Of a stretch of 64,000 nucleotides of DNA, positions 6,987-19,881 are shown one piece after another (position 1 is the stretch's first letter; every line of letters starts with the position of its first letter). Under the pieces are notes generated by a model, which made no database searches, was not told the DNA's origin, and worked only from the letters and a program-made list of their open reading frames with translations. Origin of the DNA: an uncultured Armatimonadia bacterium (GTDB taxonomy: Bacteria > Armatimonadota > Zipacnadia > CAZGSV01); the NCBI GenBank assembly GCA_964528605.1, contig CAZGSV010000007.1, positions 62 to 64,061 on the forward strand, read 5' to 3'. Both the position numbers and the translations under genes were made by a program.

Positions 6987-8255
6987 CTAGAGCATCTCCA
7001 AGAACGCCTCGATCCGCGTTCTCAGTTGCCCGGTATCCTCCTGGGAATAGTCCGTCTCAATCTTCAGACTCGGAATGCCCTTTTGTTTCAGGGCTGATGC
7101 CACGCGAATGGCCTCCAGATTGTAGCCGTGGCAATACTGCAGCACGTATTGCACCGCACCGGCCACACGGTACTCCTCAGCCAGCCTGAGCACGCTCTCG
7201 ATGCGCTCGTCGTTCGGCGAGAAGCAGGCGCACTCGGTCTTGAGATACCGATCGGCGATGGCCCTGAGTTGCGCCTCCAGGTCTCCATCCGCCTCAGGCA
7301 CCAGGTTCTCAAAGTACCGCGTCCCGGTGCACGTCTCATCGCACACCACGAGCGCGCCGCTCGACTCAAGAAGGTGGTGCAGTTTCCAGTTCCCCGCCAC
7401 CGAAGGACAGCCGGTGATCATGATCCGCTTCGCGCCCTCGCGGCCCACGCTCAGGCCGCGCGCCACCCGCTCCTCCAGGTCCTGGTTCAGCCGCTCCAGG
7501 CTCACAGCGAAGCGCTCGGCATCGTCGGTGAAGGCCGCCTGCGTGACCACCAAAGTGTCCAGGCCGCTTAGTGGCGGCGCCGCCAGGTTGCGGAACGAGT
7601 GCAACCGCGCAAGCCCCCGTCGCCTGCGATTCAATAGCCTCACGGCCTCCGACAGGCTGTCGGCCTCCAGCCTCTTCCCGGTCAAGTCCTCGAGCCGCTC
7701 CTTGAAAGCAAGCACCTCCTCATACCAGAGCGCCGCGTCACGCGGCGACTTCTTCTGCGGCACCTCCATCACGTGGAAGTCGGCTCTCTCGGCCAAAACG
7801 TCCCACGTCTTCTTCTTCGCGTCGCACGTCGTCTCGCCTACGGACATGTCCTCGAGCGGCGCGTAAGGGCACGTCTTCGAAAACGCAAGCCCCAGCGTGG
7901 ATTTGACCAGCGGGCACATGTCCCGCGGAAAGACCCTCTCCGCGTAGGGGACGGAGAACGCCGTGCCCCCGCACAAGGCCAGCGGCAGCACCCCAAGCGC
8001 CACGGCTATCTCCTCGGGCACATACACGCAGAAGGTGCCGATGAACTTGCCCCCCGCCTCCTTGTGGGCGATTATCTCGCGCACCCGCCCGCTGTGCGCC
8101 CGATGGATGACCTCGTCAAAGTACCCCATCGCTCGCGGCCGGTTCTCCTGCCACAGGACCTGCTCGCGGAACTGGGCAGCCGTGTGTTCCGCCAGAGCCC
8201 TGTGACGCTCGACGTCCAGCCCCAGCCCCCGCCACATCTCCTCGTATTCGGTCAC
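6987..8255 (-). CDS. Double-cubane-cluster-containing anaerobic reductase (DCCP; 2-hydroxyacyl-CoA dehydratase HgdB/FldC superfamily)
   Basis: True start is GTG 8255 (RBS AAGGAGG, GTGA overlap with the activator gene), 422 aa. Six cluster-Cys contexts 'TFCVYVPEE', 'DMCPLVKS', 'GETTCDAKKK', 'DETCTG', 'ECACF', 'QYCHGY'. C-terminus 'QLRTRIEAFLEML'. Confidence 0.88.
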   Translation of the reverse strand: MTEYEEMWRGLGLDVERHRALAEHTAAQFREQVLWQENRPRAMGYFDEVIHRAHSGRVREIIAHKEAGGKFIGTFCVYVPEEIAVALGVLPLALCGGTAFSVPYAERVFPRDMCPLVKSTLGLAFSKTCPYAPLEDMSVGETTCDAKKKTWDVLAERADFHVMEVPQKKSPRDAALWYEEVLAFKERLEDLTGKRLEADSLSEAVRLLNRRRRGLARLHSFRNLAAPPLSGLDTLVVTQAAFTDDAERFAVSLERLNQDLEERVARGLSVGREGAKRIMITGCPSVAGNWKLHHLLESSGALVVCDETCTGTRYFENLVPEADGDLEAQLRAIADRYLKTECACFSPNDERIESVLRLAEEYRVAGAVQYVLQYCHGYNLEAIRVASALKQKGIPSLKIETDYSQEDTGQLRTRIEAFLEML

Positions 8256-9028
8256 GAGTCCCCCTCCTTGCCTCGCGCACTCTCGGCGGCAATCAACGCC
8301 GCCCCAATCGCGGGAACGATCTGCGGGTTCTCGGGCACGAACACAGGGATTCCGAGCCGCTCGCCCAGCAGACCAACGATGCATCCGTTCTTCGCTCCCC
8401 CGCCGACGAGGAGAATCTCGGCCCCAGGTTCGACTCTGGATATCAGGCTTTCCAGTCGCACGACTATCGCGTGATGCAGACCGAGAGCAATCCTTCTCCG
8501 ATCGCCGCCCGAGGTAACCAGGGAGACGACCTCCGACTCGGCGAACACCGTGCACATGCTGCTGATCGGAACCGCCGCGTCGGCAGCCAGCGCCTCGCGC
8601 CAGAACTGCTCAATCTCCCAACCCAGCGCGCGCGCCATCAACTCCATGAACCGCCCGGTGCCGGCCGCGCAGCGATCGTTCATCTCAAAGTCATCGAAGT
8701 CCCCGTCCGGTGCCACGCGAATCGCCTTGCAGTCCTGGCCCCCGATGTCCACCACGGTCGTGCAGCCCGGCCGCACGAATGCCGCGCCCCGCGCGCACGC
8801 CTTGATCTCGCTCACCACGCCGTCGGCGAACTCCACTTTCAGCAGGTGTCGCCCGTAGCCGGTCGCGGTCACGGCCTCGAACTTCAGTCCCTCCATGGCC
8901 TGGCGCACCTTGCGCATCGGATCGTGGTCGGTGTCGAAGATGCGAAAACTCTCAACCCGCTCGCCGTCCAGCGTCACCATCTTGGTGGTGCGGGAGCCTA
9001 GATCAATCCCAAGCACGAGGCCGTTCAT
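8252..9028 (-). CDS. ASKHA-family ATP-dependent [4Fe-4S] activator/reductase (DCCP-R; HgdC/BadG-like)
   Basis: Motifs 'GIDLGSRTTK', 'ATGYGR', 'DIGGQDCK', 'MNDRCAAGTGRF', 'SMCTVFAESEV', 'GGGAKN'. ATG 9028 overlaps the PAP2 stop (TGATG); GTG 9031 is an alternative start. Confidence 0.9.
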   Translation of the reverse strand: MNGLVLGIDLGSRTTKMVTLDGERVESFRIFDTDHDPMRKVRQAMEGLKFEAVTATGYGRHLLKVEFADGVVSEIKACARGAAFVRPGCTTVVDIGGQDCKAIRVAPDGDFDDFEMNDRCAAGTGRFMELMARALGWEIEQFWREALAADAAVPISSMCTVFAESEVVSLVTSGGDRRRIALGLHHAIVVRLESLISRVEPGAEILLVGGGAKNGCIVGLLGERLGIPVFVPENPQIVPAIGAALIAAESARGKEGDS

Positions 9029-9549
9029 CACGGCCGCTTCCAGCGCGCCTCAAGCAGGAGGACCACCGCCCCGGCCAGCATTCCGGTCCCCAGGCCGCCG
9101 AGCACGTCGGTGGGCCAGTGCATGCCCAGGTAAGGGCGAGACACGCACGAGAGCAATCCGTAAAAGCCTGCCGCTATCGCCGCCCTCCGGCTCAGCCGCG
9201 CCAACACGGTCGTGGCCGCCGCCGCCGAACTCGCGTGTCCCGACGGGAAAGACCCGTTCTGCCACACGCGCCCGATGACGTTCAGATGCTCCAAGAGCAT
9301 ATAGGGTCGCGGCCTGAACCAGAGATCTTCGATGGCGCCATCGAACGCTACTGAAACTACTATCGCCGCCACCACCCAGAAGGCGATGCGACGCCCCTCC
9401 CGTCCCCCGACCAACACCAGCCCCACGCAGATCAGCCACCACACCAGGCTCCAATCGCCCGCAGTGCTCGAGGCGACCATCAGTGAGTCAATGCCCCGCC
9501 CCCACGAGCGGCTCAGCCACTGGACAATGTGGGCCTCCGTCCCGTACAC
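9028..9549 (-). CDS. PAP2-family membrane phosphatase
   Basis: Catalytic motifs 'RPRPY', 'SFPSGHA', 'SRPYLGMHWPTDVLGG'. GTG 9549 is preferred over TTG 9600 because of its upstream purine-rich RBS. Confidence 0.85.
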   Translation of the reverse strand: MYGTEAHIVQWLSRSWGRGIDSLMVASSTAGDWSLVWWLICVGLVLVGGREGRRIAFWVVAAIVVSVAFDGAIEDLWFRPRPYMLLEHLNVIGRVWQNGSFPSGHASSAAAATTVLARLSRRAAIAAGFYGLLSCVSRPYLGMHWPTDVLGGLGTGMLAGAVVLLLEARWKRP

Positions 9550-9629: not shown

Positions 9630-9658
9630 TTGAGCGCCGCGTCGCCCGGTGCTAGCAT
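9630..9658 (+). promoter_or_regulatory. Putative sigma70 promoter of the selenoprotein/sel cluster
   Basis: TTGAGC (9630-9635), 17-nt spacer, TAGCAT (9653-9658) with an extended -10 TG at 9650-9651; 60 nt upstream of ATG 9718. Confidence 0.55.
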
Positions 9659-9717
9659 GGTCCTTGGGCCACCCGGCCTCTGAACACCGAGCTCCTTCCA
9701 CGCGCTGTGACACTGGA

Positions 9718-9969
9718 ATGACCAGAAAGAACAGGCTACGGCTCCTGCTGCTCATCGCCGCCGTCCTTCTCTCCGGCGCGCTCATAGCGTTCTCCACGCT
9801 CAAGGTCAGATACCCTGTTCAGGACACCGTCAAAACGGAGCCGGACATTACCCGCCTCAGCCTCACCCACAGTGTGGAGCGCGGCCCCGACGGCCGTCTG
9901 ACGATGCCTGCGGGAGCGCCCGCCGCTGGCGCCGGCGGGGCCGCCCAGCCGTGCCCTACCTGACTCTAG
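9718..9969 (+). CDS. Small membrane-anchored candidate selenoprotein ending C-P-T-U-L (CxxU)
   Basis: MTRKNRLRLLLLIAAVLLSGALIAFSTL...AAQPCPT, then TGA(9961-9963) CTC TAG(9967-9969). A 9-bp hairpin has its loop 23 nt after the TGA. If TGA is a stop the protein is 81 aa ending CPT. Confidence 0.55.
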
Positions 9970-9976
9970 GGCGAAC

Positions 9977-10762
9977 ATGATTATGGGTTCCATAATCAAG
10001 GCAAAACGAACGATCAGGGCGCGGGTGGTAACTCAGTGGGCAGCGTTGGGCCTCTTCAACTTGCACTTCCTCTCTCTGCGTTCGGTGTGCGCCCCCGTCC
10101 TCAACTGTCATTCCTGCCCTCTCGCCGTCTTCGCCTGCCCCGTCGGCGTCCTGGTCAACTTCTCCGTGCTGCGCCTGGTCCCGTTCATCACGCTAGGCGT
10201 GCTCGGCTTAGCCGGCGCGCTCGGCGGCCGCTTCGTCTGCGGCTGGCTCTGCCCCTTCGGCCTCCTTCAGGACTGGGCCAAGAAGATCAGAAGCAGGAAC
10301 GCCAGCCTGTCCCGCCGCTTCGTTTATCTGAAGTACGCCCTCCTTGCCGGCCTCGTCTTCGCCGTGCCGTTCTTCCTTCCTAAGTCAACCTACGCCTTCT
10401 GCAATCTGTGCCCGGCCGGAACCCTCGAGTCCGCCATACCCTGGGCCGTCATGGGCCTTTCGTCTCCGTGGCGCTGGAGTTTCGGCCTCAGGGCGGCCCT
10501 CCTCCTCGGCACGGTTGTCCTTGCCATCGCCGTCAGCAGGGGATTCTGTCGGACCCTCTGTCCCCTCGGCGCCATACTGGGCGTCTTCAACAAAGTCTCC
10601 TTGCTCAGGCTCAGGCTGACCAAGGAGGACTGCAACCACTGCGGCGCCTGCGCGCGCCGATGCCCTGTGGGCATTGACCCCGCCCGCCAGATCAACCACC
10701 CCGAGTGCATCCGCTGCCTTGAGTGCACCAGAACCGGCCACTTGCAGTTAGGGCCTAGATAG
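9977..10762 (+). CDS. Membrane 4Fe-4S binding protein (NapH/MauN/RdxA-like polyferredoxin)
   Basis: Motifs 'NCHSCPLAVFACPVG', 'CGWLCPFG', 'CNLCPAG', 'FCRTLCPLG', 'CNHCGACARRCP', 'ECIRCLEC', with TM segments between them. Confidence 0.88.
   Translation: MIMGSIIKAKRTIRARVVTQWAALGLFNLHFLSLRSVCAPVLNCHSCPLAVFACPVGVLVNFSVLRLVPFITLGVLGLAGALGGRFVCGWLCPFGLLQDWAKKIRSRNASLSRRFVYLKYALLAGLVFAVPFFLPKSTYAFCNLCPAGTLESAIPWAVMGLSSPWRWSFGLRAALLLGTVVLAIAVSRGFCRTLCPLGAILGVFNKVSLLRLRLTKEDCNHCGACARRCPVGIDPARQINHPECIRCLECTRTGHLQLGPR
9978..9998 (+). promoter_or_regulatory. SECIS-like hairpin 1
   Basis: TGATTATGG-GTT-CCATAATCA, a perfect 9-bp AU-rich stem with a G-first loop, inside the known 16-37 nt UGA-to-loop window. 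Confidence 0.55.
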
Positions 10763-10800
10763 GTCTGTCATGTAGCTAGTGGCGAGGAGGGGAGCGCCAA

Positions 10801-11616
10801 ATGTTGATCGTGACCATACTGGCCGCTATGCTCGCGGGGGTGTTGGGCCTGGGGTGGCTTGTCCCTTTGATCATGGGCATCGTCTACCTCAGGAGGAGGA
10901 CGGGCGGAACGGTCCTCACTGTTCTGGGAGGAGTCTGGCTCCTCGGAGTCGTCGCCATTGTCGCGCTCGGGGCCCTGAGTGCCCGCGAGTGGCACCGTAG
11001 TTACGACTACTCGCCGAAGATCGAGCAATTCGACGCAGCGAAGTACACTGGACCGACAGGGACTATCGCCCTGACCTACAAGGGCCGTTCGAGACTTGAG
11101 GTCTACCAGCACGAGCAGCGCAAGCGGTTGCGCCTCTCAACGGACGACGGCACGATCAAGGCGCCCGTCGGTATCTACTCCGTCCTGAGTTACGAGGCCA
11201 TCGCCAAGGACGCCAAGAGAGCCCAATGGGTCGCCACGTACCGCCCCGATTCTCTCAAAGCCGCCGTCAGCGCCGGCGCCACGACCAAACTCGACCTCGG
11301 CCCGCCACTCACCGCCTCAATCACCGTCAAGAAGGCGCCCAACGACAGCGTAACCATGGACTTCAGCCTTACCGGAGCCACCGCCGGGCAGTACACAATC
11401 ACCAAGGCCCACGGTGTCCAGGTAGCCCCCTCTTTCGTGGCCCTCGACCAGTCGGGCCGCACCGTCTGGCGCGGCCGGTTCGAGTATGGCTGAGGGGGCA
11501 CCTGTGGGTATTCCGGGCGAATACCAAAGGAAGTCAAGGGAAAGGTCACCATCCGTCCGGTCGTCGAGGCGGGGCCCTTTTCCATCAAGGCCAAAGACAC
11601 GATCTGGTCAAGGTGA
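10801..11616 (+). CDS. Membrane-anchored candidate selenoprotein (U231 in F-E-Y-G-U-G-G-T-C)
   Basis: RBS AGGAGG and two N-terminal TM helices. The in-frame TGA 11491-11493 is followed by 40 open codons (GGTCGYSGRIPKEVKGKVTIRPVVEAGPFSIKAKDTIWSR) to TGA-TAG at 11614-11619. A SECIS-like hairpin loop lies 20 nt after the TGA. Confidence 0.8.
11507..11525 (+). promoter_or_regulatory. SECIS-like hairpin 2
   Basis: GGTATTC-CGGGC-GAATACC, 7-bp perfect stem, G in the second loop position. Confidence 0.75.
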
Positions 11617-11677
11617 TAGAATTGGGTGGTGATGGCTGGGTTATGCCTGGCCGATCAAGAGATGGGGGTGCGCCAAC

Positions 11678-12616
11678 ATGACGCGCAGTAGGACACTGAA
11701 GGCTGCCGCTTTGGCGCTTGTCTTCCTAACGGGACTGGCGTGTGTCGCGTTCCTGGGCTCCTGCCGGCAACCACCGACCACCAGCCCTCCTCCGCGTACG
11801 GTCGTTACGCCACCTAGCACGTTTCCCCTCGCTCGGCCGGCCGCGGTCCGCGACGACGGCAAGCCGCGCTACGGCAAGATCGTTCTCAACCAGGACGCCT
11901 CGAAGGTCCTGCTGGTCTCCTTCGAGCGCTCGCCTGAGGCCCGCGCGGGCTACGACCTCATCCGCGCAGACACCAAGTTCACAGGCTCCCTCAAGAACGC
12001 CGAGCAGATACCAGGTACTCTCACCGCATCGGGTACTGTCTTCTCGGCCCGCTTCCCCATTATCAACCTGCAGGTGCCCTTCAACCAGAAGGGCAGCGGC
12101 ATCCCGAACCCTTCGTCCGTTCAGTTCAGGTACTACGGCTCCGGCTCGGACCCGCGGGTCAACGTATCCGTCAGAACTCGCCTCCGCGAGGGCGCTACCT
12201 ACTGGGACTACTCCTTCCGGGGCATGCTCAAACCCTCGGCTAGCCCGCAGACCGCTCCCGTGCTCGACCTGAGCCGTGCGGCCAAACCAAACATCGAGAT
12301 CACGACCCAGCCGGACCCCGCGAAGAAAGGGTACACAGGCATCGGCCTCCAGTTGGGCGTCGCGGACATGGAGGTGGATTTCTGGAAAGGAACGATGCCC
12401 TCCACCGCACCGTCCGCCACCATCGTGTTCACCGCTGAAGGCGGTCGCGTCGCGCACCGCAGTACCGCCTCACTCGACAAGTTTACCTTTGGCTGAAGCG
12501 GCTCATGTGGGTATTCCGTGCGAATACCAAAGGGCAAATACACCCTTACCGCCAGCGTGGACACGGGCCCGCTGGCCGGAGTGGTCAAGGGCACCAAGGC
12601 TGTTGTCCTCAACTAA
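11678..12616 (+). CDS. Lipoprotein candidate selenoprotein (U273 in F-T-F-G-U-S-G-S-C)
   Basis: Signal peptide with lipobox 'LGSC' and a Pro/Thr linker. The in-frame TGA 12494-12496 is followed by 39 open codons (SGSCGYSVRIPKGKYTLTASVDTGPLAGVVKGTKAVVLN) to TAA 12614-12616. A SECIS-like hairpin loop lies 20 nt after the TGA. Confidence 0.8.
12510..12528 (+). promoter_or_regulatory. SECIS-like hairpin 3
   Basis: GGTATTC-CGTGC-GAATACC, the same stem and spacing as hairpin 2 with one loop substitution. Confidence 0.75.
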
Positions 12617-12736
12617 TCCCTAACTTCGCGGTCTCCGCTCGCCGGCCTTGGGCGGCGCCTCGCCACAGCCCAACCTGCTGCGCCCTGACCACCTCCGTTT
12701 GGGCCAGACCTTGGCTTGTCGCGTGGGAGGCAGCGT

Positions 12737-14158
12737 TTGGATAGCGAGATCCTGCGGCAGCTGCCCTCCGTTGACCAACTCCTGAACGCCGCCGAACGCG
12801 CCGGCCTCATCGGCGAGCACGGCCGTGAGATGGTGCTCAATGCGGCGCGCGCCGTGCTCGACCAGGCCCGGGCCCAGATCGCGCACGGCTCAGCCGCGCT
12901 GCCCGATTCCCGGGAGCATGCTACCGACCTTATCGTCGGCCAGATCGCGGGCTATCTGCAAGAAGCGGCCAGTCGCTCCCTCGGTCGTGCCGTGAACGCA
13001 ACCGGCATCATCATCCACACCGGCCTAGGCCGAGCCCTGTTGCCCCGCACCGCCGCCGAGGCCGTAGCCGAGGTCCTGGGTGGCTACTGCAACCTCGCGG
13101 TTGACCCGGACACGGGCCAGCGCGGACACCGAGACTCGCACCTCGTCGGCCTCCTCTGTGAACTCACCGGCGCCGAGGCCGCCACCATGGTCAACAACAA
13201 CGCCGCCGCCACCATGATCATCCTCAACACGCTGGCCAAGGGGAAAGAGGTCATCGTCTCCCGTGGCCAACTGGTCGAGATCGGCGGCTCCTTCCGCATG
13301 CCGGAGGTCATGGAGGCCAGTGGCGCCATCCTCCGGGAAGTGGGCACTACCAACAAGACCTACCTGAGCGACTACCTCAACGCTATCGGCGACAACACCG
13401 GAGCCATCCTGCGCGTCCACCAGAGCAACTACCGCATCATCGGTTTCACCGAACAGCCGGCCCTCGAAGGCCTCGTGCGCGTCGGCCACGAGCACAACCT
13501 GCCCGTCATTGACGACCTCGGCAGCGGCGCGCTCCTCGACATGAAGGACTTCGGCCTGGCGCACGAGCCCATGGTGCAAGAGAGCATTCGCGCGGGCGCG
13601 GACGTCGTCTGCTTCAGCGGCGACAAACTTATCGGCGGCCCACAGGCCGGCGTCATCGTTGGCCAGGCCGCTGTCATCGAGAAGATCAAGAAGAACCCGC
13701 TGGCCCGCGCCCTGCGAGTCGGCAAGATGACCATAAGCGCCCTGGAAGCGACGCTGCGCCTGTTCCTCAGCCGCGACAGACTCCTCAGCGAGAATCCGAC
13801 CTATCGCATGTTGTCCCTCCCCCTCTCCGAACTCGACGAGCGGGCCAAGTCCGTCGCCGAGGCGCTGCGCGAAGTCCTCTCAGGCGTCGCCGAAATCGCC
13901 GTCATTGACGGCGCCTCCGAGGTCGGCAGCGGCTCCGTGCCCGCGGAGGCGATTCCCACGCGCCTCCTGAGCGTCAGGCCCACAGCGGTGTCCACTCAGA
14001 CCCTGGCCCGATCACTCCGCCACTACGCCCCCCCCATTTTCGCCCGCGTCCACAAGGACGCGGTGCTCTTCGACTTCCGCACCCTGCAAGCCGAGGAAGA
14101 TGCGATCGTCTGTGCCGCGCTGCGGGCGCTCCTGGCAAATGAGGCGACGTCCGAATGA
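12737..14158 (+). CDS. selA: L-seryl-tRNA(Sec) selenium transferase
   Basis: Motifs 'VNATGIIIHTGLGRA', 'VNNNAAA', 'SRGQLVEIGGSFRMPEVM', PLP-Lys 'FSGDKLIGGPQAG'. TTG 12737 has RBS GGGAGG; TTG 12716 is an alternative. Confidence 0.97.
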   Translation: MDSEILRQLPSVDQLLNAAERAGLIGEHGREMVLNAARAVLDQARAQIAHGSAALPDSREHATDLIVGQIAGYLQEAASRSLGRAVNATGIIIHTGLGRALLPRTAAEAVAEVLGGYCNLAVDPDTGQRGHRDSHLVGLLCELTGAEAATMVNNNAAATMIILNTLAKGKEVIVSRGQLVEIGGSFRMPEVMEASGAILREVGTTNKTYLSDYLNAIGDNTGAILRVHQSNYRIIGFTEQPALEGLVRVGHEHNLPVIDDLGSGALLDMKDFGLAHEPMVQESIRAGADVVCFSGDKLIGGPQAGVIVGQAAVIEKIKKNPLARALRVGKMTISALEATLRLFLSRDRLLSENPTYRMLSLPLSELDERAKSVAEALREVLSGVAEIAVIDGASEVGSGSVPAEAIPTRLLSVRPTAVSTQTLARSLRHYAPPIFARVHKDAVLFDFRTLQAEEDAIVCAALRALLANEATSE

Positions 14159-15741
14159 TAGACCCGGAGAAGAGACGGCGCGTGATGGAGCGGTCCATGA
14201 AGTTGGGCCACTGCATCTGCAACCCCAAGCAGGCCTGCCCGTGTGACCTTTTCAAGGAGCAAGACGTCTGCACCTGCGCCGGCGAGCGCCCTCACCATCT
14301 CTCCTCCGAGGTCCGACTCACCACCCTGGTCGAGAACCCCGGCTGCGCCTCGAAGATCAGCCAGCAGGACCTGAAGCAGATCCTCGTAGGCCTCCCGCAC
14401 GAGACCGACCCGAACGTCCTCGTGAGCGCAAGCACCTGCGACGACGCCGGCATATACCAACTGGACGAGGACCGTGCGCTCGTCCAATCCGTGGACGTCT
14501 TCGCGCCCAGCGTGGACGACCCCTATACCTTCGGCCAGATAGCCGCCGCCAACTCGCTCAGCGACATCTACGCCATGGGCGGCCGGCCCCAAACGGCCCT
14601 CGCCATCATCGGCTTCCCCACCGACAGTCTGAGCGCCGACATCATGACCGAGATCGTCCGCGGCGGCATTGACAAGATGCGCGAGGCCGGCGTCCCCGTC
14701 ATTGGCGGCCACAGCATCAACGACCGCGAGATCAAGTTTGGCTTCGCCGTCACCGGCGTCATCAACCCCTCCACAATCGTCACCAATGCCAATGCCCAGC
14801 CCGGCGACCTCCTGCTGCTAACCAAGCCCCTGGGTGTCGGCGCCATCGCCTTCGCCGCGCAACTGGGGAAGGCGTCGTCGCTCGCGCTCACGGCTTCGGC
14901 CCGCGCCATGAGCCAACTCAACAATACGGCCGCCGAAGTGATGCTCGAAATCGGTGTCAACTCCGCCACCGACGTCACCGGCTTCGGCCTCCTCGGCCAC
15001 CTCACCGAGATGGCCGTCCAGAGCGGCGTCACAGTCGAGGTCTACCCGGAACAGATCCCGACGTTCCCGGAAGCCCTCGATTACCTCTCCCAGGGCATCA
15101 TCTCTGGGGCGGCCGAGCGCAACAAAGAGTACGTCTCGCGCTACGTCACCTTCGCCCCGGGCGTGAGCGAAGCCATGCAGTATCTGCTCTGCGATCCTCA
15201 AACCTCGGGCGGCCTGCTCATGGCCGTCCCGGCCGAGAAGGCCCAGGCGCTGCTCGCCGCGCTTCGCAATCGCGGCGTGGAGGCTGCCTCGATCATCGGC
15301 GCAGTGAGCGCCAAGTCGGAGGCACATATCGTGATCAAGAACAACCAACCTTGCTGTGCGGAAGAAGCCTCGGCTGAGGAGGCAGCGGCCGCGCCGGAGG
15401 AATCCCCCGCCGCTTGCTGTGCCTCCGTCGCTCACGCGGAGTGCTGCGCCACTCCCGACGAGGCTCCCCCAGAGACCGCCGATACTCCCGCCAAGGAGAG
15501 CTTCATGGCCTTCATGGGTGAGGTCATGCGCGAGGGGGGCATCAGCCTCCACAACAAGGAACTCATGGCCATCGCGCTCTCCCTGCTCGCCAAGTGCGAG
15601 CCCTGCGCCAGAATCCACCTGAGCAAGGCCCGCGCCGCCGGCGCCCGCGAGGACGAGATCACCGAGGCCGTCTGGATGGCCGTCGCCTTCGGCGGCGCGC
15701 CCACGCTGATGTTCTATGAATCGCTCAAGGGAAGCGATTGA
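14155..15741 (+). CDS. selD: Selenide, water dikinase (Cys-type) fused to an N-terminal Cys-rich FTR-like domain and a C-terminal AhpD/CMD domain
   Basis: Core 'GCASKI', 'DDAGIY', 'QSVDVF', 'FGQIAAANSLSDIYAMGG', 'GGHS', 'TDVTGFGLLGHL', 'DPQTSGGLL'. Extra N-terminal CIC/CPC/CTC motifs and C-terminal 'KELMAIALSLLAKCEPCARIH'. Confidence 0.95.
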   Translation: MIDPEKRRRVMERSMKLGHCICNPKQACPCDLFKEQDVCTCAGERPHHLSSEVRLTTLVENPGCASKISQQDLKQILVGLPHETDPNVLVSASTCDDAGIYQLDEDRALVQSVDVFAPSVDDPYTFGQIAAANSLSDIYAMGGRPQTALAIIGFPTDSLSADIMTEIVRGGIDKMREAGVPVIGGHSINDREIKFGFAVTGVINPSTIVTNANAQPGDLLLLTKPLGVGAIAFAAQLGKASSLALTASARAMSQLNNTAAEVMLEIGVNSATDVTGFGLLGHLTEMAVQSGVTVEVYPEQIPTFPEALDYLSQGIISGAAERNKEYVSRYVTFAPGVSEAMQYLLCDPQTSGGLLMAVPAEKAQALLAALRNRGVEAASIIGAVSAKSEAHIVIKNNQPCCAEEASAEEAAAAPEESPAACCASVAHAECCATPDEAPPETADTPAKESFMAFMGEVMREGGISLHNKELMAIALSLLAKCEPCARIHLSKARAAGAREDEITEAVWMAVAFGGAPTLMFYESLKGSD

Positions 15742-17707
15742 GAGCGCCGCCGCGGACGCCGAGCAGATAATCGTCGGCACCGCAGGCCACATTGACCACG
15801 GCAAGACCGCGCTCGTCAAGGCCCTAACCGGCGTAGACGCCGACACCCTAGCCGAGGAAAAGCGCCGCGGCATCACCATCGAACTCGGCTTCGTCTTCAT
15901 GGAGACGCCCGACCCGCGCAAGCACCTGGTCTTCATTGACGTCCCGGGCCACGAGCGCCTTATCAAGACCATGGTGGCCGGCGCCAGCAGCATTGATGCC
16001 GCTCTGCTCGTGGTCGCCGCAGACGAAGGCGTCAGCGCCCAGACCCGAGAGCATCTCGACATCCTGCGTTTGCTCGAAGTGCCGGCAGGCGTCGTGGCGC
16101 TCACCAAGGCGGACCTGGTTGACGACGAGCGTCTCGCCTTCGTCGCGCAAGAGACCCGTGACTCCCTCGCCGACACCTTCCTCAGCGACGCGCCGATCAT
16201 ACCCGTATCCTCGGTCACGGGCTGCGGCGTCGAGGACATCAGGTCTGCCGTGCTGGCGTTGGCAGACCGCGTGCGCCCGCGGCCCGACAGTGGCATCTTC
16301 CGCATGCCCGTTGACCGCGTCTTCACCATGCACGGCTTCGGCACCGTCATCGCCGGCACCATCCTCTCAGGCTCAGTCGCGGTCGCTGACACCATCGAGT
16401 TGTTCCCCGACGGGATGCTCGCCCATGTGCGCGGCATACAGGTCCACCGCCAGAACACGAAGCGCTCCAACATCGGCAAGCGCACCGCAATCAACCTTCA
16501 GGACATTGAGAAGGAGAGACTGCGGCGTGGCCAGTGCGCCGCGGCACCCGGCTCGCTCACGCCGACGAACCGCCTCGACGTCCGGCTTCGGCTGATGGAG
16601 CATTGCCGTCAAAGCCTGAAGAACCGCGCCAGGCTCCGCCTCCACCTGGGCACGGACGAGGTCATCTGCCGTCTGGCGCTTCTCGACCGCGAAGACTTGG
16701 CGCCCGGTGCCGAAGCGCCGGTGCAACTCGTGCTCGAAAGCCCGACCGTGGCCGTCCGCAGCGAGCGTTTCCTCGTCCGCACCTTCTCGCCGCAAGTGAC
16801 TATCGGTGGTGGCGCCGTGCTCGACCCATTGCCCCCGCGACACAAACGCTTCGACCCGGCAACGGTCGAGGACCTCGCCCGCCTCGACCGCGGCCTCGAA
16901 GAGGCAGTTGAGCAGGCCTTCCTCAAGTCGGGCTTCATCCCTCGGACGCCGCAGCAGGTCGCCCTCGCCCTTGCGGAGCGAGAGGAAGAGGTCACGCCAG
17001 CCGTGGAGGGCCTCTGCCAGGCGCGACGGCTCGTCAAGATCGCCGCAAGTGGCGAGCCAAGTCCGCCCTCGGCCTCACCGCAACAAACGTACCTGCACGC
17101 CGACGCCTTCGCGTCGCTCGGTCAGCGCCTGCTCACCCTCATCGAAGAGTACTACGCGCGGCACCCGTATCGGCTCTTGATGCCGCTCGCGGACCTCCAG
17201 TCGCGCTTCCTCAGATGGGCCGAGCGGCCCCTGTTGGACGCGGCGCTCGCCGACCTGCGCAAAGCCGGGCGCATCTACTCCCAGGAAGGCGCCGTCGGCC
17301 TGAGCGGCTACGAGATACCGCTCAAGCCCTCCGAACGCCAGTTGGCCGAACGCATCGAGGCGGCCTTCAGCGGGGCCGGCCTTGCCGCGCCCCTGGAGGA
17401 GGAAGTGCGCCAGCACCTGGGCGCGCGCCCCGAGACCTTCCAGAGCATCCTCACAGGTTTGATTGACCAAGGGCGCTTGGTTAGACTCAGCGACAAGGTG
17501 ACCTATCACCGAGAGCATCTGGACGCGGCGCGCGCCATGGTGACCGACCACCTCAAGACCCATCAGCGCCTCTCCGTCGCCGAACTACGCGACCAACTCG
17601 GCGTCTCGCGCAAGTACGCCCTCGCGCTCATGGAGTACTTCGACAAGGTCGGCCTCACCCGGCGCGAAGGCGACGCCCACGTCCTCAAGCAGCCAGCGGG
17701 AAGGTGA
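15716..17707 (+). CDS. selB: Selenocysteine-specific translation elongation factor
   Basis: 'GTAGHIDHGKT', 'EEKRRGITIELGF', 'DVPGHE', 'TKAD', C-terminal winged helix 'RDQLGVSRKYALALMEYFD...TRREGD'. Confidence 0.97.
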   Translation: MNRSREAIESAAADAEQIIVGTAGHIDHGKTALVKALTGVDADTLAEEKRRGITIELGFVFMETPDPRKHLVFIDVPGHERLIKTMVAGASSIDAALLVVAADEGVSAQTREHLDILRLLEVPAGVVALTKADLVDDERLAFVAQETRDSLADTFLSDAPIIPVSSVTGCGVEDIRSAVLALADRVRPRPDSGIFRMPVDRVFTMHGFGTVIAGTILSGSVAVADTIELFPDGMLAHVRGIQVHRQNTKRSNIGKRTAINLQDIEKERLRRGQCAAAPGSLTPTNRLDVRLRLMEHCRQSLKNRARLRLHLGTDEVICRLALLDREDLAPGAEAPVQLVLESPTVAVRSERFLVRTFSPQVTIGGGAVLDPLPPRHKRFDPATVEDLARLDRGLEEAVEQAFLKSGFIPRTPQQVALALAEREEEVTPAVEGLCQARRLVKIAASGEPSPPSASPQQTYLHADAFASLGQRLLTLIEEYYARHPYRLLMPLADLQSRFLRWAERPLLDAALADLRKAGRIYSQEGAVGLSGYEIPLKPSERQLAERIEAAFSGAGLAAPLEEEVRQHLGARPETFQSILTGLIDQGRLVRLSDKVTYHREHLDAARAMVTDHLKTHQRLSVAELRDQLGVSRKYALALMEYFDKVGLTRREGDAHVLKQPAGR

Positions 17708-17794
17708 AGGTTCCGGTGAACCTTCTGGACTTCAAACCCAGTATGGGGCTTGGATAAAGTCCCGGGTGGGTTCGACTCCCACACCTTCCCGCCA
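17698..17794 (+). tRNA. selC: tRNA-Sec (anticodon TCA)
   Basis: 8-bp acceptor GGGAAGGT/ACCTTCCC, 6-bp D stem AGGTTC-CGGT-GAACCT, loop CTTCAAA with TCA at 17732-17734, long variable arm GGGGCTT/AAGTCCC, T arm GTGGG-TTCGACT-CCCAC, encoded GCCA end. Confidence 0.97.
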
Positions 17795-17829: not shown

Positions 17830-19881
17830 ATGCCTTCGAATGACAGACTACCGCGAGTTTGGGTGCGGCCGGTTGAGCCGGAGGAGTATCCCGGCTTCGA
17901 GGAGCGCCGCCTCAAACCCGTCACCCGCGCCGACCTCGACCAGCAGTTCCACACCGTCGCCCTTCGCGGCTTCAGTTACGACCGCTCGCCCGCCGAGCCT
18001 CCCCACAAGTTCCGCGTCGTCAACCTCAAAGAGACCCTCGATCTCTACACCGTGGAGTACGACTTCGGCCGCGTGGTCTGGCCGATGTGGCCCTTCCTCT
18101 TCGCGGAGAACTGGCGCGAGGTCATCGATGAGTTGTTCGCGCGCCGACTCTACCTCTTCGACATCTGGGCCTACTGCCCCTCTGGCGTCTTCGAGCGCTT
18201 CGAGTGGTCCGAATACCGCGTGCCCGACGAGGTCCACCAGTACATCCTCCGGAAGCTGGGCCCGCGCTTCCTCGGCTACGACAACGGCGAGCAAGACGGG
18301 CGCTACATCGGCGGCTACGCTAAGTCAGTCTGCCCCGCGCCCGCGACTCGCCCGCAGGGGTTCGAGGCCTTCTGCCAGTACTTCCGCCAACTGGGCGACG
18401 ACCTCCAGAATCATCTGACGGCGCTCAACTCCCTCACCTTCTCCCACTACTTCGCCCACCTCGGCAACCACCGCCTGCTCGGCGCCGAGTGCGCCCAAGC
18501 CCTCCCCAGCGTCCCCATGTGGTACGCCTTCATCAGAGGCGCGGGCAGGCAATACGGCATCCTCTGGTTCGGCAACGCCAGTGTGTGGAACCGCTGGGGC
18601 GCTAAGTCGCTGGCCGATCCCAGCGCCGAGGACACCAACGCCCCCGGCTTCTTCTCCGGCCCCACCGCCGGCACCAGCCTCAGTCTCCTGCGCCGCCTCT
18701 GGTACGTGCTGACCATGTACGGCAGCGTCATCATGGGCTACGAAGCGGGGCAACTCGCCAGCGGCACGGTCGAGCGCACCGTCAACGGCCTCACCAAGCA
18801 GGTCCCGGACCTCACCGACATCGGCCGCGAGCATATGAGGGGCGCTCAATGGTGCGCCGATCATCCGGATCGCGGCGTGCAGCACACCCCTGTAGCCCTG
18901 CTCTGGGACTTCTACGCCGGCTGGGCGCCGCCGCGCCACCTCTACACCGGCGACACCTACCTCGTGTGGGGCAACATGCCCTACCAGAAGGGCGACCACC
19001 AGATTGACCTCCTGCTGCGCGAACTCTACCCCGACTACCCCGACGCCGGCTTCTTCCACAACGAGCGCGGCTTCCTCACCGCCACCCCCTGCGGCGACTC
19101 CTTCGATGTCATCCTCTCCAACGCGCCGCGCGAGGTCCTCGACCGCTACGCGTGCATCGTCGCGTTGGGCGAGACCGCTATCGAAGGCGAACTCCTCGAG
19201 AAGCTGTCCTGGTGCCTGCAAAGAGGCGCCCACGTGGTCGCGTGCGCAAACCAACTCTCGCCCGAGGCCGCTGCCCTCTTCGGCGTCACAGTAGGCGACC
19301 AAGGGGAAGCCTACCACGCCGTTATTGCCGACCATCCCTGGCCCATCAACGAGCCCCGCTTCACCTTCCACAGGCTGACCTGTCAGCCCGACGCCGAAGT
19401 GCTCGCCCACACGCGTCAAGGCTCGCCCCTGGTTGTGCGCCGCCAGCACCAAGCCGGCGGCTTCACGCTCCTCTTTGCTGCCGACTTCTTCCTCAGCGAG
19501 CGCCTGCTCTCGCCTGACAAGATCGCGAATGAGGTTGACGAACCGCTGGCCTCTCCCTTCGCGACGCTCGAGCATGCCAAAGCCATCCTCCTTCCCTACC
19601 TGCGCTCCTTCAACCTCGTTACTGTGGACGGCCCCCCCGTGCAGCTCCTCGTCAACGTCAGCTCGCGGACCGACCGACTCCTGGTCACCTTGTGCAACAA
19701 CAGCCCTCAACCCTGGGAGGGTACCGTCCGCCCGAAACGCGCCGGCCTCACCTCCGCGCGCAACTGGATGACGGGCGAGGAAATCCCCGGTAAGGAGTCC
19801 ATCCGCGTGCTCGTTCCGCCCCTCGATGTCGCAGTCGTGGAACTCCTGCTCGACGCCCCGGCATTCGAGGCCCGGCCATGA
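17830..19881 (+). CDS. Hypothetical protein, possibly glycoside-hydrolase-like (TIM barrel + class-I GATase-like C-terminal domain)
   Basis: 683-aa ORF with coding-like codon bias. 'YDNGEQD' and 'LGAECAQ' resemble clan-A acid/base and nucleophile contexts. 'PVALLWD...' C-terminal part is GH42-like. Confidence 0.5.
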   Translation: MPSNDRLPRVWVRPVEPEEYPGFEERRLKPVTRADLDQQFHTVALRGFSYDRSPAEPPHKFRVVNLKETLDLYTVEYDFGRVVWPMWPFLFAENWREVIDELFARRLYLFDIWAYCPSGVFERFEWSEYRVPDEVHQYILRKLGPRFLGYDNGEQDGRYIGGYAKSVCPAPATRPQGFEAFCQYFRQLGDDLQNHLTALNSLTFSHYFAHLGNHRLLGAECAQALPSVPMWYAFIRGAGRQYGILWFGNASVWNRWGAKSLADPSAEDTNAPGFFSGPTAGTSLSLLRRLWYVLTMYGSVIMGYEAGQLASGTVERTVNGLTKQVPDLTDIGREHMRGAQWCADHPDRGVQHTPVALLWDFYAGWAPPRHLYTGDTYLVWGNMPYQKGDHQIDLLLRELYPDYPDAGFFHNERGFLTATPCGDSFDVILSNAPREVLDRYACIVALGETAIEGELLEKLSWCLQRGAHVVACANQLSPEAAALFGVTVGDQGEAYHAVIADHPWPINEPRFTFHRLTCQPDAEVLAHTRQGSPLVVRRQHQAGGFTLLFAADFFLSERLLSPDKIANEVDEPLASPFATLEHAKAILLPYLRSFNLVTVDGPPVQLLVNVSSRTDRLLVTLCNNSPQPWEGTVRPKRAGLTSARNWMTGEEIPGKESIRVLVPPLDVAVVELLLDAPAFEARP

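What the first reader, a model, noticed from the sequence alone, without database searches (positions are those of the whole stretch)
9630..17794. Candidate undescribed selenoprotein redox system encoded with its own Sec machinery
One putative promoter (9630-9658) is followed by co-directional genes: a CxxU membrane peptide, a membrane polyferredoxin, a TM-anchored U-x-G-x-C protein, a lipoprotein U-x-G-x-C protein, selA, selD fusion, selB and selC. Seen in sequence: three in-frame TGAs, each beside a Cys and followed by a SECIS-like hairpin, next to a complete Sec pathway. Inference: the polyferredoxin passes electrons across the membrane to extracytoplasmic Sec/Cys redox centres. Standard gene callers truncate all three ORFs, so they would look like unrelated hypothetical proteins.
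Basis: partly seen in the sequence, partly recalled or inferred. Interest (0 to 1): 0.95.

Follow-up and report, generated by a model that had tools for sequence, protein, structure and literature searches.

The report
New membrane selenoprotein operon with Sec machinery
One operon encodes three previously unrecognised selenocysteine proteins, all predicted to face outward from the cell membrane, together with a membrane iron-sulfur protein and every gene needed to make selenocysteine; gene callers cut all three short, and what the system does chemically is still unknown.

Summary
Three in-frame TGAs (9961, 11491, 12494) lie in co-directional genes directly upstream of selA, a selD fusion, selB and tRNA-Sec.

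Related contigs show all three are real Sec codons:
- The small peptide always ends CPT-TGA-Leu-stop. The Leu codon varies synonymously and the stop codon varies.
- The two larger proteins share a C-terminal domain, FxFG-U-GGxC-x-YS-x-RIP. I found 32 distinct TGA copies of it in 12 sources (the window and 11 loci).
- Each TGA is followed by a hairpin that shows compensatory changes.
- Paralogues without TGA read straight through the domain and have lost the hairpin.
- About 93 of 111 database homologues stop exactly at the TGA. None has Cys at that position.

No Pfam or NCBIfam model, and no family in a 2026 inventory of 119 selenoprotein families, fits these proteins.

The mechanism is inferred, not shown. 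A NapH-like membrane polyferredoxin has subfamily-specific Cys motifs predicted to face outward. It probably relays electrons through the peptide's CxxU tail to exposed Sec loops on Ig-like proteins. A double-cubane reductase and its activase are conserved neighbours. The proposed promoter is not supported. The substrate is unknown.

The parts
9630..9658 (+).
   Evidence: It matches the consensus at 8 of 12 positions and was not reported by the scan. The -10 hexamer is not conserved in L006.
9718..9969 (+). pepA: an 83-residue single-TM peptide ending C79-P-T-U82-L. The Sec codon is at 9961-9963, Leu at 9964-9966 and the TAG stop at 9967-9969.
   Evidence: CPT-TGA-CTN-stop is conserved in the window and 9 non-identical related loci, with all four CTN Leu codons and all three stop codons seen. 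L020 has CPT-TGA-Val-Lys-stop. Hydropathy puts the N-terminus inside and the tail outside.
9978..9998 (+). SECIS-like hairpin of pepA: UGAUUAUGG-GUU-CCAUAAUCA. It overlaps the polyferredoxin start codon at 9977-9979.
   Evidence: Folding results are. At least four different stem sequences sit at the same place in 10 loci: GAUUAUGG/CCAUAAUC, GCCAUGG/CCAUGGC, CAGCGGG/CCCGCUG and GGCUGUGG/CCAUAGCC.
9977..10762 (+). Membrane polyferredoxin, NapH-like with two Fer4_5 domains. It has cytoplasmic CX3CP motifs and 4Fe-4S motifs, plus subfamily-specific Cys motifs predicted to face outward: C44xxC47P, C54P and C142xxC145P.
   Evidence: Family scans. Alignment of 29 homologues. E. coli NapH lacks the outward-facing motifs. 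Hydropathy and charge distribution.
10801..11616 (+). Selenoprotein C: a two-TM hairpin anchor and an outside beta-rich region ending in the Sec domain. U231 is at 11491-11493, C235 follows, and the TGA stop is at 11614-11616.
   Evidence: The post-TGA extension is conserved in L006, L008, L014, L015, L017, L018 and L026.
11507..11525 (+). SECIS hairpin of C: GGUAUUC-CGGGC-GAAUACC
11678..12616 (+). Selenoprotein D: a predicted lipoprotein (LGSC29 followed by a PT-rich linker) built from Ig/FN3-like sandwiches. The C-terminal Sec domain has U273 at 12494-12496 and C277. The TAA stop is at 12614-12616.
   Evidence: Structure model of the TGA-less homologue P0227.
12510..12528 (+). SECIS hairpin of D: GGUAUUC-CGUGC-GAAUACC
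12716..14158 (+). selA (L-seryl-tRNA(Sec) selenium transferase)
   Evidence: TIGR00474 570 bits against a cut-off of 268; PF03841.
14155..15741 (+). selD fusion: a Cys-rich N-terminus of about 50 residues, a Cys-type SelD, and a C-terminal AhpD/CMD domain with CEPC
   Evidence: TIGR00476 372.7 bits; PF02627 at residues 447-519. The same fusion is found in L011-L015. The N-terminal motif is also present in the L020 SelD.
15716..17707 (+). selB (Sec-specific elongation factor)
   Evidence: TIGR00475 379.8 bits; SelB winged-helix domains.
17698..17794 (+). selC (tRNA-Sec, anticodon TCA). It overlaps the last 10 nt of selB.
   Evidence: ARAGORN; Rfam RF01852 75 bits.
6987..8255 (-). Double-cubane-cluster anaerobic reductase (DCCP), a conserved neighbour
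   Evidence: NF040772 452.9 bits against a cut-off of 350. PDB 6ENO E=1.8e-125. Synteny.
8252..9031 (-). ATP-dependent activase of the BcrAD/BadFG (HgdC-like) type, partner of the DCCP
   Evidence: TIGR00241 220 bits. In L008 and L024 this gene sits directly upstream of pepA on the same strand.

Best explanation
SHOWN: 9718-17794 is one co-directional gene string. It encodes three genuine selenoproteins (pepA, C and D), a membrane polyferredoxin, and the complete Sec pathway: selA, a selD fusion, selB and tRNA-Sec. C and D share a roughly 65-residue C-terminal beta-sandwich domain. Its exposed loop carries G-U-G-G-x-C. pepA is a single-pass membrane peptide whose tail ends C-P-T-U-L.

INFERRED MECHANISM: The polyferredoxin takes low-potential electrons on the cytoplasmic side, through its 4Fe-4S and CX3CP motifs. 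The conserved neighbouring DCCP/activase pair or a ferredoxin may be the donor. The polyferredoxin then passes reducing power to its subfamily-specific CxxCP motifs, which are predicted to face outward. The flexible CxxU tail of pepA acts as a swinging selenolate/thiolate shuttle, analogous to the GCUG tail of thioredoxin reductase. It keeps the Sec loops of the membrane-anchored C protein and the secreted or lipoprotein D paralogues reduced. Those loops then act on an unknown substrate outside the cytoplasm, either as a reductant/peroxidase-like nucleophile or as a chalcogen/metal ligand.

Keeping the system next to the Sec genes guarantees that Sec can be decoded.

My confidence that these are real selenoprotein genes is about 0.95. 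My confidence in the electron-relay mechanism is about 0.4.
For: TGA conservation:
- pepA ends CPT-TGA-Leu-stop in the window and 9 non-identical loci, with the Leu codons CTC, CTA, CTG and CTT and the stops TAG, TGA and TAA.
- There are 32 distinct TGA copies of the C/D domain in 12 sources, the window and 11 loci.

SECIS:
- The C/D stem is paired in 98.6% of cells, with two covarying pairs.
- It is built from codons that are rare in this genome: TAT is 15% of Tyr, ATA 9% of Ile and CGA 6% of Arg. The hairpin is absent from TGA-less paralogues.
- pepA hairpins have at least four different stem sequences at the same distance from the UGA.

The post-TGA sequence is coding:
- C and D resemble each other only across the TGA (BLASTP 1e-8).
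- TGA-less paralogues are continuous ORFs through the domain.
- About 93 of 111 HMMER representatives end at ..FG.

Sec genes are adjacent in L006/7, L008/9/24, L011-15 and L026.

Evidence for the relay:
- The outward-facing Cys motifs are invariant in 29 homologues and absent from E. coli NapH.
- Topology comes from hydropathy and the positive-inside rule.
- Distant polyferredoxin homologues are preceded by a different single-TM peptide ending LCL[SG]C.G.. (a CxxC motif), in one case directly after the ResB/CcsA cytochrome c biogenesis genes.
- The D fold is three Ig/FN3-like sandwiches with the Sec loop between strands (pLDDT 88.6).
- DCCP and its activase are conserved neighbours.
Against: - There is no experimental evidence for selenium incorporation, co-transcription, topology or any redox activity.
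- The resolving Cys is missing from several D copies that keep Sec (L014, L015, L026: GGSPGYS, GGAISYS, GGSMSYS). A simple intramolecular U-C couple therefore cannot be general.
- In canonical NapH the Fe-S and CX3CP motifs are cytoplasmic, and no route for electrons across the membrane is established. This rests on my own knowledge of NapH studies and was not tested here.
- Sec-domain proteins also occur without a polyferredoxin within 10 kb (L016-L018).
- Foldseek finds only generic Ig/FN3 folds and no enzyme fold.
- The complete absence of Cys-for-Sec homologues is atypical for thiol-type oxidoreductases.
Confidence: 0.5

Rival explanations
1. Metal, metalloid or organometal capture and hand-over, in the manner of the SAO system. 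The Sec loops of D and C and the CxxU tail of pepA would be soft-ligand binding sites for Hg, Cu, As or an organometallic compound. These sites would pass a bound species to the membrane protein. The polyferredoxin would act as a reductase, as CcoG does for Cu(II), and the cytoplasmic DCCP would reduce the imported compound.
For: - DCCP and its activase are conserved neighbours. Haft & Gwadz (bioRxiv 10.1101/2022.07.06.499078, read) link the same DCCP family (NF040772) to SelD-containing genomes and to the multi-selenoprotein SAO locus, whose C-terminal Cys/Sec motifs are proposed metal ligands.
- Sec is kept while the nearby Cys can be lost, which fits a ligand better than a redox pair.
- Ig-like scaffolds without an enzyme fold fit binding proteins.
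- Several tandem D paralogues are present, up to six in L012.
Against: - No SAO, Mer, Cop or Ars family model matches A, C or D, even at E<=10.
- No transporter or efflux pump is conserved in the cassette.
- Metal-ligand selenoproteins normally have Cys homologues, and none was found here.
Confidence: 0.2
2. Selenium acquisition or trafficking. The outward-facing selenols would capture or reduce environmental selenium (Se0, selenite, polyselenides) as Se-Se or Se-S adducts. They would pass it inward to the SelD fusion, whose Cys-rich N-terminus and AhpD-like CxxC tail would accept it. The DCCP would supply low-potential reduction.
For: - The cassette is tightly and repeatedly linked to selD. 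In L020 the order is DCCP genes, activase, selD, pepA, polyferredoxin, with no selA or selB found elsewhere in the 12.9-kb locus.
- Extra Cys domains on SelD are conserved.
- Cys never replaces Sec, which is what Se-specific chemistry would predict.
- A link between DCCP and SelD has been reported.
Against: - It would be circular for the cell to need Sec proteins in order to obtain selenium.
- Co-location with the sel genes is equally explained by the need for Sec decoding.
- L010 carries pepA, the polyferredoxin and D with no sel gene within 10 kb.
- There is no similarity to known selenium transporters or binding proteins.
Confidence: 0.12
3. The TGAs are ordinary stop codons, or are read through as a standard amino acid. 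On this view the downstream conservation reflects separate small ORFs or a regulatory hairpin.
For: - No protein-level data exist.
- TGA is the commonest normal stop codon in the window.
- Gene callers and the databases treat these sites as stops.
Against: - The frame and length after the TGA are conserved, and the domain spans the TGA.
- TGA-less paralogues are continuous through the domain.
- The Leu codon after the pepA TGA varies synonymously, and a varying stop codon follows it.
- The hairpin is tied to the presence of TGA and covaries.
- selA, selB, selC and selD are adjacent.
Confidence: 0.03

Closest known systems
SAO (selenocysteine-assisted organometallic) locus of Clostridioides difficile and other anaerobes (Haft & Gwadz, bioRxiv 10.1101/2022.07.06.499078; J Bacteriol 2023)
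   Same: - Several selenoprotein genes lie in one conserved neighbourhood.
- Cys/Sec motifs sit at or near C-termini and are truncated in the databases.
- The proteins are membrane-associated or outside the cytoplasm.
- The locus is frequently adjacent to an NF040772 double-cubane reductase and its activase.
- The chemistry is unknown.
   Different: - None of the Sao family models matches.
- There is no ABC transporter, MerB-like lyase or efflux pump.
- Instead there is a NapH-like polyferredoxin, a CPTU-L peptide and Ig-like Sec-loop proteins.
- Here the Sec biosynthesis genes are part of the same gene string.
- The lineage is different: named relatives are mostly Armatimonadota, and some MAGs are labelled Verrucomicrobiota.
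NapH / MauN / NosR-type membrane ferredoxins (TIGR02163, PF12801 Fer4_5)
   Same: - Four predicted TM segments.
- Two CX3CP motifs after the even-numbered helices.
- C-terminal ferredoxin-type Cys clusters.
- These proteins are thought to connect membrane or cytoplasmic redox pools with periplasmic enzymes.
   Different: - The score is 68 bits against a cut-off of 213 for NapH/MauN.
- There are no nap, nos or mau partner genes.
- Extra invariant CxxCP and CP motifs lie in both predicted outer loops, and E. coli NapH lacks them.
- The protein is paired with a small peptide that carries a redox motif on its tail.
Selenoproteins with Sec at the extreme C-terminus (UXX-star and KCU-star families; the GCUG tail of thioredoxin reductase)
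   Same: - Sec lies within a few residues of the C-terminus next to a Cys, as in CxxU.
- The bacterial examples must therefore place the SECIS beyond the stop codon.
   Different: - The NCBIfam star-family models (NF041114, NF041211, NF033934) do not match.
- pepA is a single-TM peptide with no enzyme domain.
- Its SECIS lies in the intergenic region and, in most loci, overlaps the next gene's start codon.
DsbD/CcdA with periplasmic thioredoxin-like proteins (transmembrane thiol-reductant relay)
   Same: This is the functional analogy proposed here: reducing power crosses the membrane to Cys-type redox centres outside the cytoplasm. One distant polyferredoxin homologue lies in a ResB/CcsA cytochrome c biogenesis operon.
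   Different: - There is no sequence relationship.
- The input would be Fe-S based, not thioredoxin based.
- The acceptors are Ig-like rather than thioredoxin-fold proteins and use Sec.
UGSC-containing selenoprotein (NF041046) and 'hypothetical protein DG' (NF049953, GUxG motif)
   Same: These are short Sec motifs that look superficially similar (U-G-S-C; G-U-x-G).
   Different: Neither model matches, even at E<=10. The spacing here is U-x-x-x-C, and the motif is embedded in an FxFG-U-GGxC-x-YS-x-RIP beta-sandwich domain.

Membership tests
Bacterial selenoprotein gene (Sec-UGA plus bacterial SECIS) | An in-frame TGA is conserved among diverged homologues | tested here: met
   pepA: the window and 9 non-identical loci. 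C/D domain: 32 distinct copies, all TGA.
Bacterial selenoprotein gene (Sec-UGA plus bacterial SECIS) | Coding conservation continues in frame after the TGA | tested here: met
   Extensions of 39-40 residues are conserved with the stop at the same place. TGA-less paralogues are continuous. The Leu after the pepA TGA varies synonymously.
Bacterial selenoprotein gene (Sec-UGA plus bacterial SECIS) | A stem-loop lies just downstream of the UGA, with G/U in the apical loop (bSECIS model; the spacing of about 16-37 nt is recalled from Zhang & Gladyshev 2005) | tested here: met
   C/D: a 7-bp stem starts 16 nt after the U of UGA, with loop CG(U/G)G(C/A); 98.6% paired and two covarying pairs. pepA: 7-9 bp stems start 15-18 nt after the UGA, with loops GUU, GGU, UGU or CGUGC, and at least four different stem sequences.
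Bacterial selenoprotein gene (Sec-UGA plus bacterial SECIS) | The Sec machinery (selA, selB, selC, selD) is present in the genome | tested here: met
   All four genes are in the same gene string. They are adjacent in at least seven related loci.
Bacterial selenoprotein gene (Sec-UGA plus bacterial SECIS) | Cys-containing homologues align with Sec (the usual supporting criterion) | tested here: not met
   None of the 111 HMMER representatives has Cys at the Sec position. About 12 full-length homologues have unrelated loops, and one has Arg. For pepA, the only Cys-type counterpart is a non-homologous CxxC-tailed peptide next to distant polyferredoxins.
Bacterial selenoprotein gene (Sec-UGA plus bacterial SECIS) | Selenium is demonstrated in the protein | not testable with these tools
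   This needs 75Se labelling or mass spectrometry.
NapH/MauN family ferredoxin-type protein (TIGR02163) | The score reaches the curated cut-off | tested here: not met
   68.4 bits against 213.05. NF007013 NapH scores 54.5 against 234.
NapH/MauN family ferredoxin-type protein (TIGR02163) | Two Fer4_5 (CX3CP) units and C-terminal 4Fe-4S Cys motifs | tested here: met
   PF12801 matches twice. C88x3C92P, C191x3C195P and C219/222/225/229 are present. The second cluster motif has only C244/247/250 in the close subgroup.
NapH/MauN family ferredoxin-type protein (TIGR02163) | The gene lies in a nap, mau or nos context | tested here: not met
   No such genes occur in the window or in the fetched related loci.
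SAO system (SaoL, SaoC, SaoB, SaoP, SaoX, SaoT) | Matches to the Sao NCBIfam models (NF040727-NF040735) | tested here: not met
   No hits for A, C or D at E<=10.
SAO system (SaoL, SaoC, SaoB, SaoP, SaoX, SaoT) | Adjacent to an NF040772 double-cubane protein and its activase | tested here: met
   NF040772 452.9 bits and TIGR00241 220 bits, immediately upstream on the opposite strand. This arrangement is conserved in related loci.
UGSC-containing selenoprotein (NF041046) / hypothetical protein DG (NF049953) | A match to the family model | tested here: not met
   No hit at E<=10.
Double-cubane-cluster anaerobic reductase (the neighbouring gene at 6987-8255) | The score is above the curated cut-off, and there is close similarity to the solved DCCP | tested here: met
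   452.9 bits against a cut-off of 350. PDB 6ENO E=1.8e-125 over the full length.

The most novel reading that the evidence does not exclude
This would be a selenium-obligate redox relay outside the cytoplasm. An ATP-driven double-cubane reductase/activase pair feeds very low-potential electrons into a NapH-like polyferredoxin. The polyferredoxin moves them across the membrane to a CxxU swinging-arm peptide, and from there to Sec loops on Ig-like surface proteins. If so, it would be the first dedicated transmembrane electron conduit to periplasmic selenoproteins. It would also give the double-cubane proteins, whose natural substrates are unknown, a physiological role. It would further be a selenoprotein family in which Cys cannot replace Sec.
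Probability: 0.22. Interest if true: 0.9.

Novelty: new variant of a known kind. Interest (0 to 1): 0.78.

Why it matters
- It adds two sequence families to the known bacterial selenoproteins: the CPTU-tail peptide and the GUGGxC beta-sandwich domain. Current annotation pipelines miss both. More than 100 database clusters (at 50% identity) are truncated 'hypothetical proteins'.
- The proteins are predicted to lie outside the cytoplasm and to have an Ig-like fold rather than a thioredoxin-like one. No Cys-for-Sec homologue was found. All three features are unusual and bear on the open question of why Sec is kept at all.
- pepA shows a bacterial SECIS placed beyond the stop codon and overlapping the next gene's start. 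This suggests that Sec decoding and polyferredoxin synthesis are translationally coupled.
- The conserved link to a double-cubane reductase independently strengthens the reported, unexplained association between that enzyme family and selenium. It also offers a defined gene set with which to test that association.

Tried and rejected
- Word-indexed protein searches with read-through D and with pepA returned only the query's own cluster. They were too insensitive, so I replaced them with an exhaustive HMMER search and with neighbourhood walking from polyferredoxin homologues.
I modelled a TGA-less homologue instead.
- Foldseek against the PDB gave only generic Ig/FN3 matches with E>1e-3, so no functional lead. 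The polyferredoxin profile against PDB sequences matched only generic ferredoxin domains.
- Pfam and NCBIfam at E<=10 gave nothing for A, C or D. The weak CopC/YobA hit for pepA (E=0.086) covers the signal/TM region, and I dismissed it.
- A pepA alignment that included L020 was too divergent for the metagenome scan. The narrower scan returned only 6 loci.
- The window's own polyferredoxin is not on record in the contig index, so the source organism could not be named.
- The promoter at 9630-9658 is rejected as unsupported. Terminator-like sites inside the string are at chance level, 6 found against 5.2 expected.
- Global UGA reassignment is rejected.
- I looked for a correlation between C142 of the polyferredoxin and the presence of pepA. 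The loci are too few to conclude anything.

Full report
**What is there.** Between 9718 and 17794 every gene is on the + strand, and gaps range from -26 to +102 nt.
- pepA (9718-9969) encodes MTRKNR..., one hydrophobic helix, and ends QPCPT-TGA-CTC-TAG.
- A 261-residue membrane polyferredoxin follows at 9977-10762. It has two PF12801 Fer4_5 units and ferredoxin Cys motifs. Its NapH/MauN score is 68 bits against a cut-off of 213.
- Protein C (10801-11616) reads ...RGRFEYG-TGA-GGTCGYSGRIPK... and continues for 40 codons after the TGA.
- Protein D (11678-12616) reads ...DKFTFG-TGA-SGSCGYSVRIPK... and continues for 39 codons.
- selA, selD and selB all score far above their curated cut-offs. selD carries a Cys-rich N-terminus and an AhpD/CMD tail with CEPC.
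- tRNA-Sec (17698-17794) is found by ARAGORN and by Rfam at 75 bits.

TGA is also the most frequent ordinary stop codon in the window (19 of 38 long ORFs, two of which are the truncated C and D ORFs), so the genetic code is not reassigned.

**Are the TGAs read as Sec?** C and D are paralogues only around the TGA: BLASTP finds 50% identity over 36 residues spanning it and nothing elsewhere. I walked out from polyferredoxin homologues of 45-78% identity. I also ran one scan of GTDB species genomes and one of metagenomes. Together these gave related loci with the same order: pepA, polyferredoxin, C, one to several D copies, then selA-selD-selB.
- In the window and nine non-identical loci pepA ends CPT-TGA-Leu-stop. 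The Leu codon is CTC, CTA, CTG or CTT, and the stop is TAG, TGA or TAA. A more distant locus has CPT-TGA-Val-Lys-stop. Synonymous variation at a codon that lies after a 'stop' means that codon is translated.
- For the C/D domain I collected 32 distinct TGA-containing copies from 12 sources, the window and 11 loci. The consensus is FxFG-U-GGxC(G/R)YS(V/G)RIP.
- Two tandem paralogues (L011:2789 and L012:6832) have no TGA and are continuous ORFs through the same domain.
- An exhaustive HMMER search with the truncated D protein against 1.84 billion representatives found 112 proteins. About 93 of the 111 non-self hits end exactly at ...[F/L/P]G, the residue before the TGA. About a dozen are full length with an unrelated loop, one with Arg at the Sec position. 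None has Cys there.

**SECIS.** Sixteen nucleotides after the U of each C/D TGA lies GGUAUUC-CG(U/G)G(C/A)-GAAUACC.
- Over 31 distinct sequences, 98.6% of cells pair. Two pairs covary: U-A to C-G in four sequences and U-A to G-U in one. Slid controls fall to 22-61% pairing.
- The stem is built from the codons TAT-TCC-GNG-CGA-ATA-CC. In other genes of this 66% G+C window, TAT is 15% of Tyr codons, ATA 9% of Ile and CGA 6% of Arg.
- The TGA-less paralogues keep Y-S-x-x-[IV]-P at the protein level but have lost the hairpin.
- The 19-nt element occurs only at these two sites in the window, against 0.01 expected by chance.
- pepA has a 7-9 bp hairpin starting 15-18 nt after its UGA, which puts it beyond the stop codon. 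At least four unrelated stem sequences occupy this position in different lineages, each with G/U in the loop. In most loci, including the window (9978-9998), the 5' arm contains the polyferredoxin start codon.

**Anatomy.**
- Hydropathy and charge distribution put the pepA N-terminus inside and its 53-residue tail, with C79 and U82, outside. C has a two-helix hairpin anchor and about 210 residues outside. D has a signal sequence with LGSC29 followed by a Pro/Thr-rich linker, which looks like a lipoprotein.
- In the polyferredoxin, the loops after the even-numbered helices are rich in Lys and Arg. They carry CX3CP (C88/C92 and C191/C195) and the Fe-S motifs. The other two loops carry C44xxC47P, C54P and C142xxC145P.
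- These motifs are invariant or nearly so in 29 homologues. They are missing from E. coli NapH, which shares only the cytoplasmic motifs.
- An AlphaFold model of the TGA-less D homologue P0227, built with an 87-sequence alignment, is confident (pLDDT 88.6, pTM 0.81). It is all-beta, with three Ig/FN3-like sandwiches. The position equivalent to Sec lies in a loop of 9-10 residues between strands of the last sandwich.
- Foldseek finds only generic FN3/Ig proteins.
- The Sec domain is modular. It is attached to the C-type anchor, to D-type lipoproteins, to different N-terminal regions in L016, and to TPR or DUF3352 regions in database homologues.

**Context.** Immediately upstream on the other strand lie a double-cubane-cluster reductase (NF040772 452.9 bits; PDB 6ENO E=1.8e-125) and its ATP-dependent activase.
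- This pair, or DCCP paralogues, lies within the fetched flanks of the cassette or the sel genes in every lineage with enough sequence. That covers W/L001, L006, L008/L024 (activase directly upstream of pepA on the same strand), L010, L012-L015 and L020.
- Haft and Gwadz reported that this DCCP family is almost confined to SelD-containing genomes and often flanks the SAO multi-selenoprotein locus.
- More distant polyferredoxin homologues (40-47% identity) lack pepA. In three of the five loci inspected they are preceded by another single-TM peptide of about 45 residues ending LCL[SG]C[IM]G[IL]x, a CxxC motif. One of these sits directly after ResB/CcsA, and another has a Redoxin/AhpC-TSA gene about 320 nt upstream.

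**How it probably works.**
- Shown: three Sec-decoding genes in the window, and up to five per locus in relatives, are hard-wired to the Sec machinery. All of their products are predicted to be exposed outside the cytoplasm.
- Inferred: the polyferredoxin is the electron-input module. Its outward-facing CxxCP motifs exchange with the flexible CxxU tail of pepA, and that tail services the Sec loops of C and D.
- The loss of the neighbouring Cys in some D copies suggests that the Sec acts alone, as a nucleophile or ligand, and is resolved by an external partner such as pepA.
- Two explanations for never replacing Sec with Cys are resistance to irreversible over-oxidation outside the cell and Se-specific chemistry. 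Both are speculation.
- Rival functions are metal or organometal hand-over in the SAO manner, and selenium acquisition for the SelD fusion. Neither can be excluded.

**Comparison with what is known.**
- No Pfam-A or NCBIfam (release 20) model matches A, C or D, even at E<=10. NCBIfam includes the curated models for the SAO, Tso, 'star', UGSC and 'DG' selenoprotein families.
- None of the 119 families and subfamilies in the 2026 inventory fits (PMC13188914). That review has no mention of polyferredoxin, NapH, lipoprotein or periplasm.
- BSepDB is built from previously reported families.
- Multi-selenoprotein operons are a known kind, for example grdAB, frhA-frhD-hdrA, SAO and Tso. This one is a new variant of that kind: new families, a new scaffold, a predicted location outside the cytoplasm, and the Sec genes in the same gene string.
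- Haft & Tolstoy 2025 could not be read. Its families are covered only indirectly, through NCBIfam and the review table.

**Limits.**
- Everything is computational.
- The related loci come from MAGs and metagenomes. Named relatives are mostly Armatimonadota, and some MAG titles say Verrucomicrobiota or Victivallales.
- The window's own organism was not identified.
- Co-transcription is inferred only from spacing. The proposed promoter is not supported.

Noticed in passing
window 6987-9031 (- strand): A double-cubane-cluster anaerobic reductase (NF040772, 452.9 bits; PDB 6ENO-like) and its ATP-dependent activase sit divergently next to the cassette. The pairing recurs in nearly all related loci. 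This fits the published but unexplained association between DCCP and SelD/selenium.
   Followed up: partly
window 9977-9998: The pepA SECIS hairpin lies beyond the pepA stop codon, and its 5' arm contains the polyferredoxin ATG. The same arrangement is seen in L006, L008, L010, L014, L015, L025 and L026, but not in L027. It may couple Sec decoding to polyferredoxin translation.
   Followed up: partly
window 14155-15741: SelD is a three-part fusion: a Cys-rich N-terminus of about 50 residues (GHCICNPKQACPCDLFKEQDVCTCAGE), a Cys-type SelD, and an AhpD/CMD domain with CEPC. L011-L015 have the same fusion. The L020 SelD keeps the N-terminal motif but has no AhpD tail. No family model covers the N-terminal motif.
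   Followed up: partly
window 17698-17707: The tRNA-Sec gene starts 10 nt before the selB stop codon, so selC overlaps selB.
   Followed up: no
L019:5856-5996, L028 about 4800-4960, L029 about 4850-4990: Distant polyferredoxin homologues are preceded by a different single-TM peptide of about 45 residues ending LCL[SG]C[IM]G[IL]x, a C-terminal CxxC motif. This looks like a Cys-type analogue of pepA. In L019 the pair follows the ResB/CcsA cytochrome c biogenesis genes.
   Followed up: partly
L008:9736-9860 (also L009:8109-8321 and L024:6626): A short degenerate fragment, ...SGFG-TGA-VATCRYSVRIPRERQD..., sits just before selA. It keeps the TGA and an intact SECIS hairpin but has no recognisable N-terminal domain. 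It is probably a decaying extra D copy.
   Followed up: no
L014:8815-9270: In this Armatimonadia MAG, pepA is followed after about 200 nt by only the last 84 residues of a C-type protein. The polyferredoxin and the N-terminus of C are missing. This is either a deletion or a mis-assembly.
   Followed up: no
L020:2094-3479: One of several HGD-D/DCCP-like genes upstream of selD is split into two gene calls (213 and 195 residues). Stop codons and a frame change lie between them. It is a possible pseudogene or sequencing error and does not look like a Sec site.
   Followed up: partly
P0134 (517 aa), P0239 (602 aa): Some database homologues are tandem fusions of two D-type units. In P0134 the first unit is TGA-less and the second is truncated at ...LRPG. 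This shows that Sec and non-Sec versions of the domain can coexist in one polypeptide.
   Followed up: no
L010:11971-17164: In the Armatimonadota MAG GCA_054604175.1, pepA, the polyferredoxin and D are followed by a SAM methyltransferase, three HGD-D family genes and an activase. There are no sel genes within 10 kb.
   Followed up: no
window 17830-19881: A 683-residue ORF directly after tRNA-Sec has no NCBIfam match. I did not check whether it is conserved beside the cassette.
   Followed up: no
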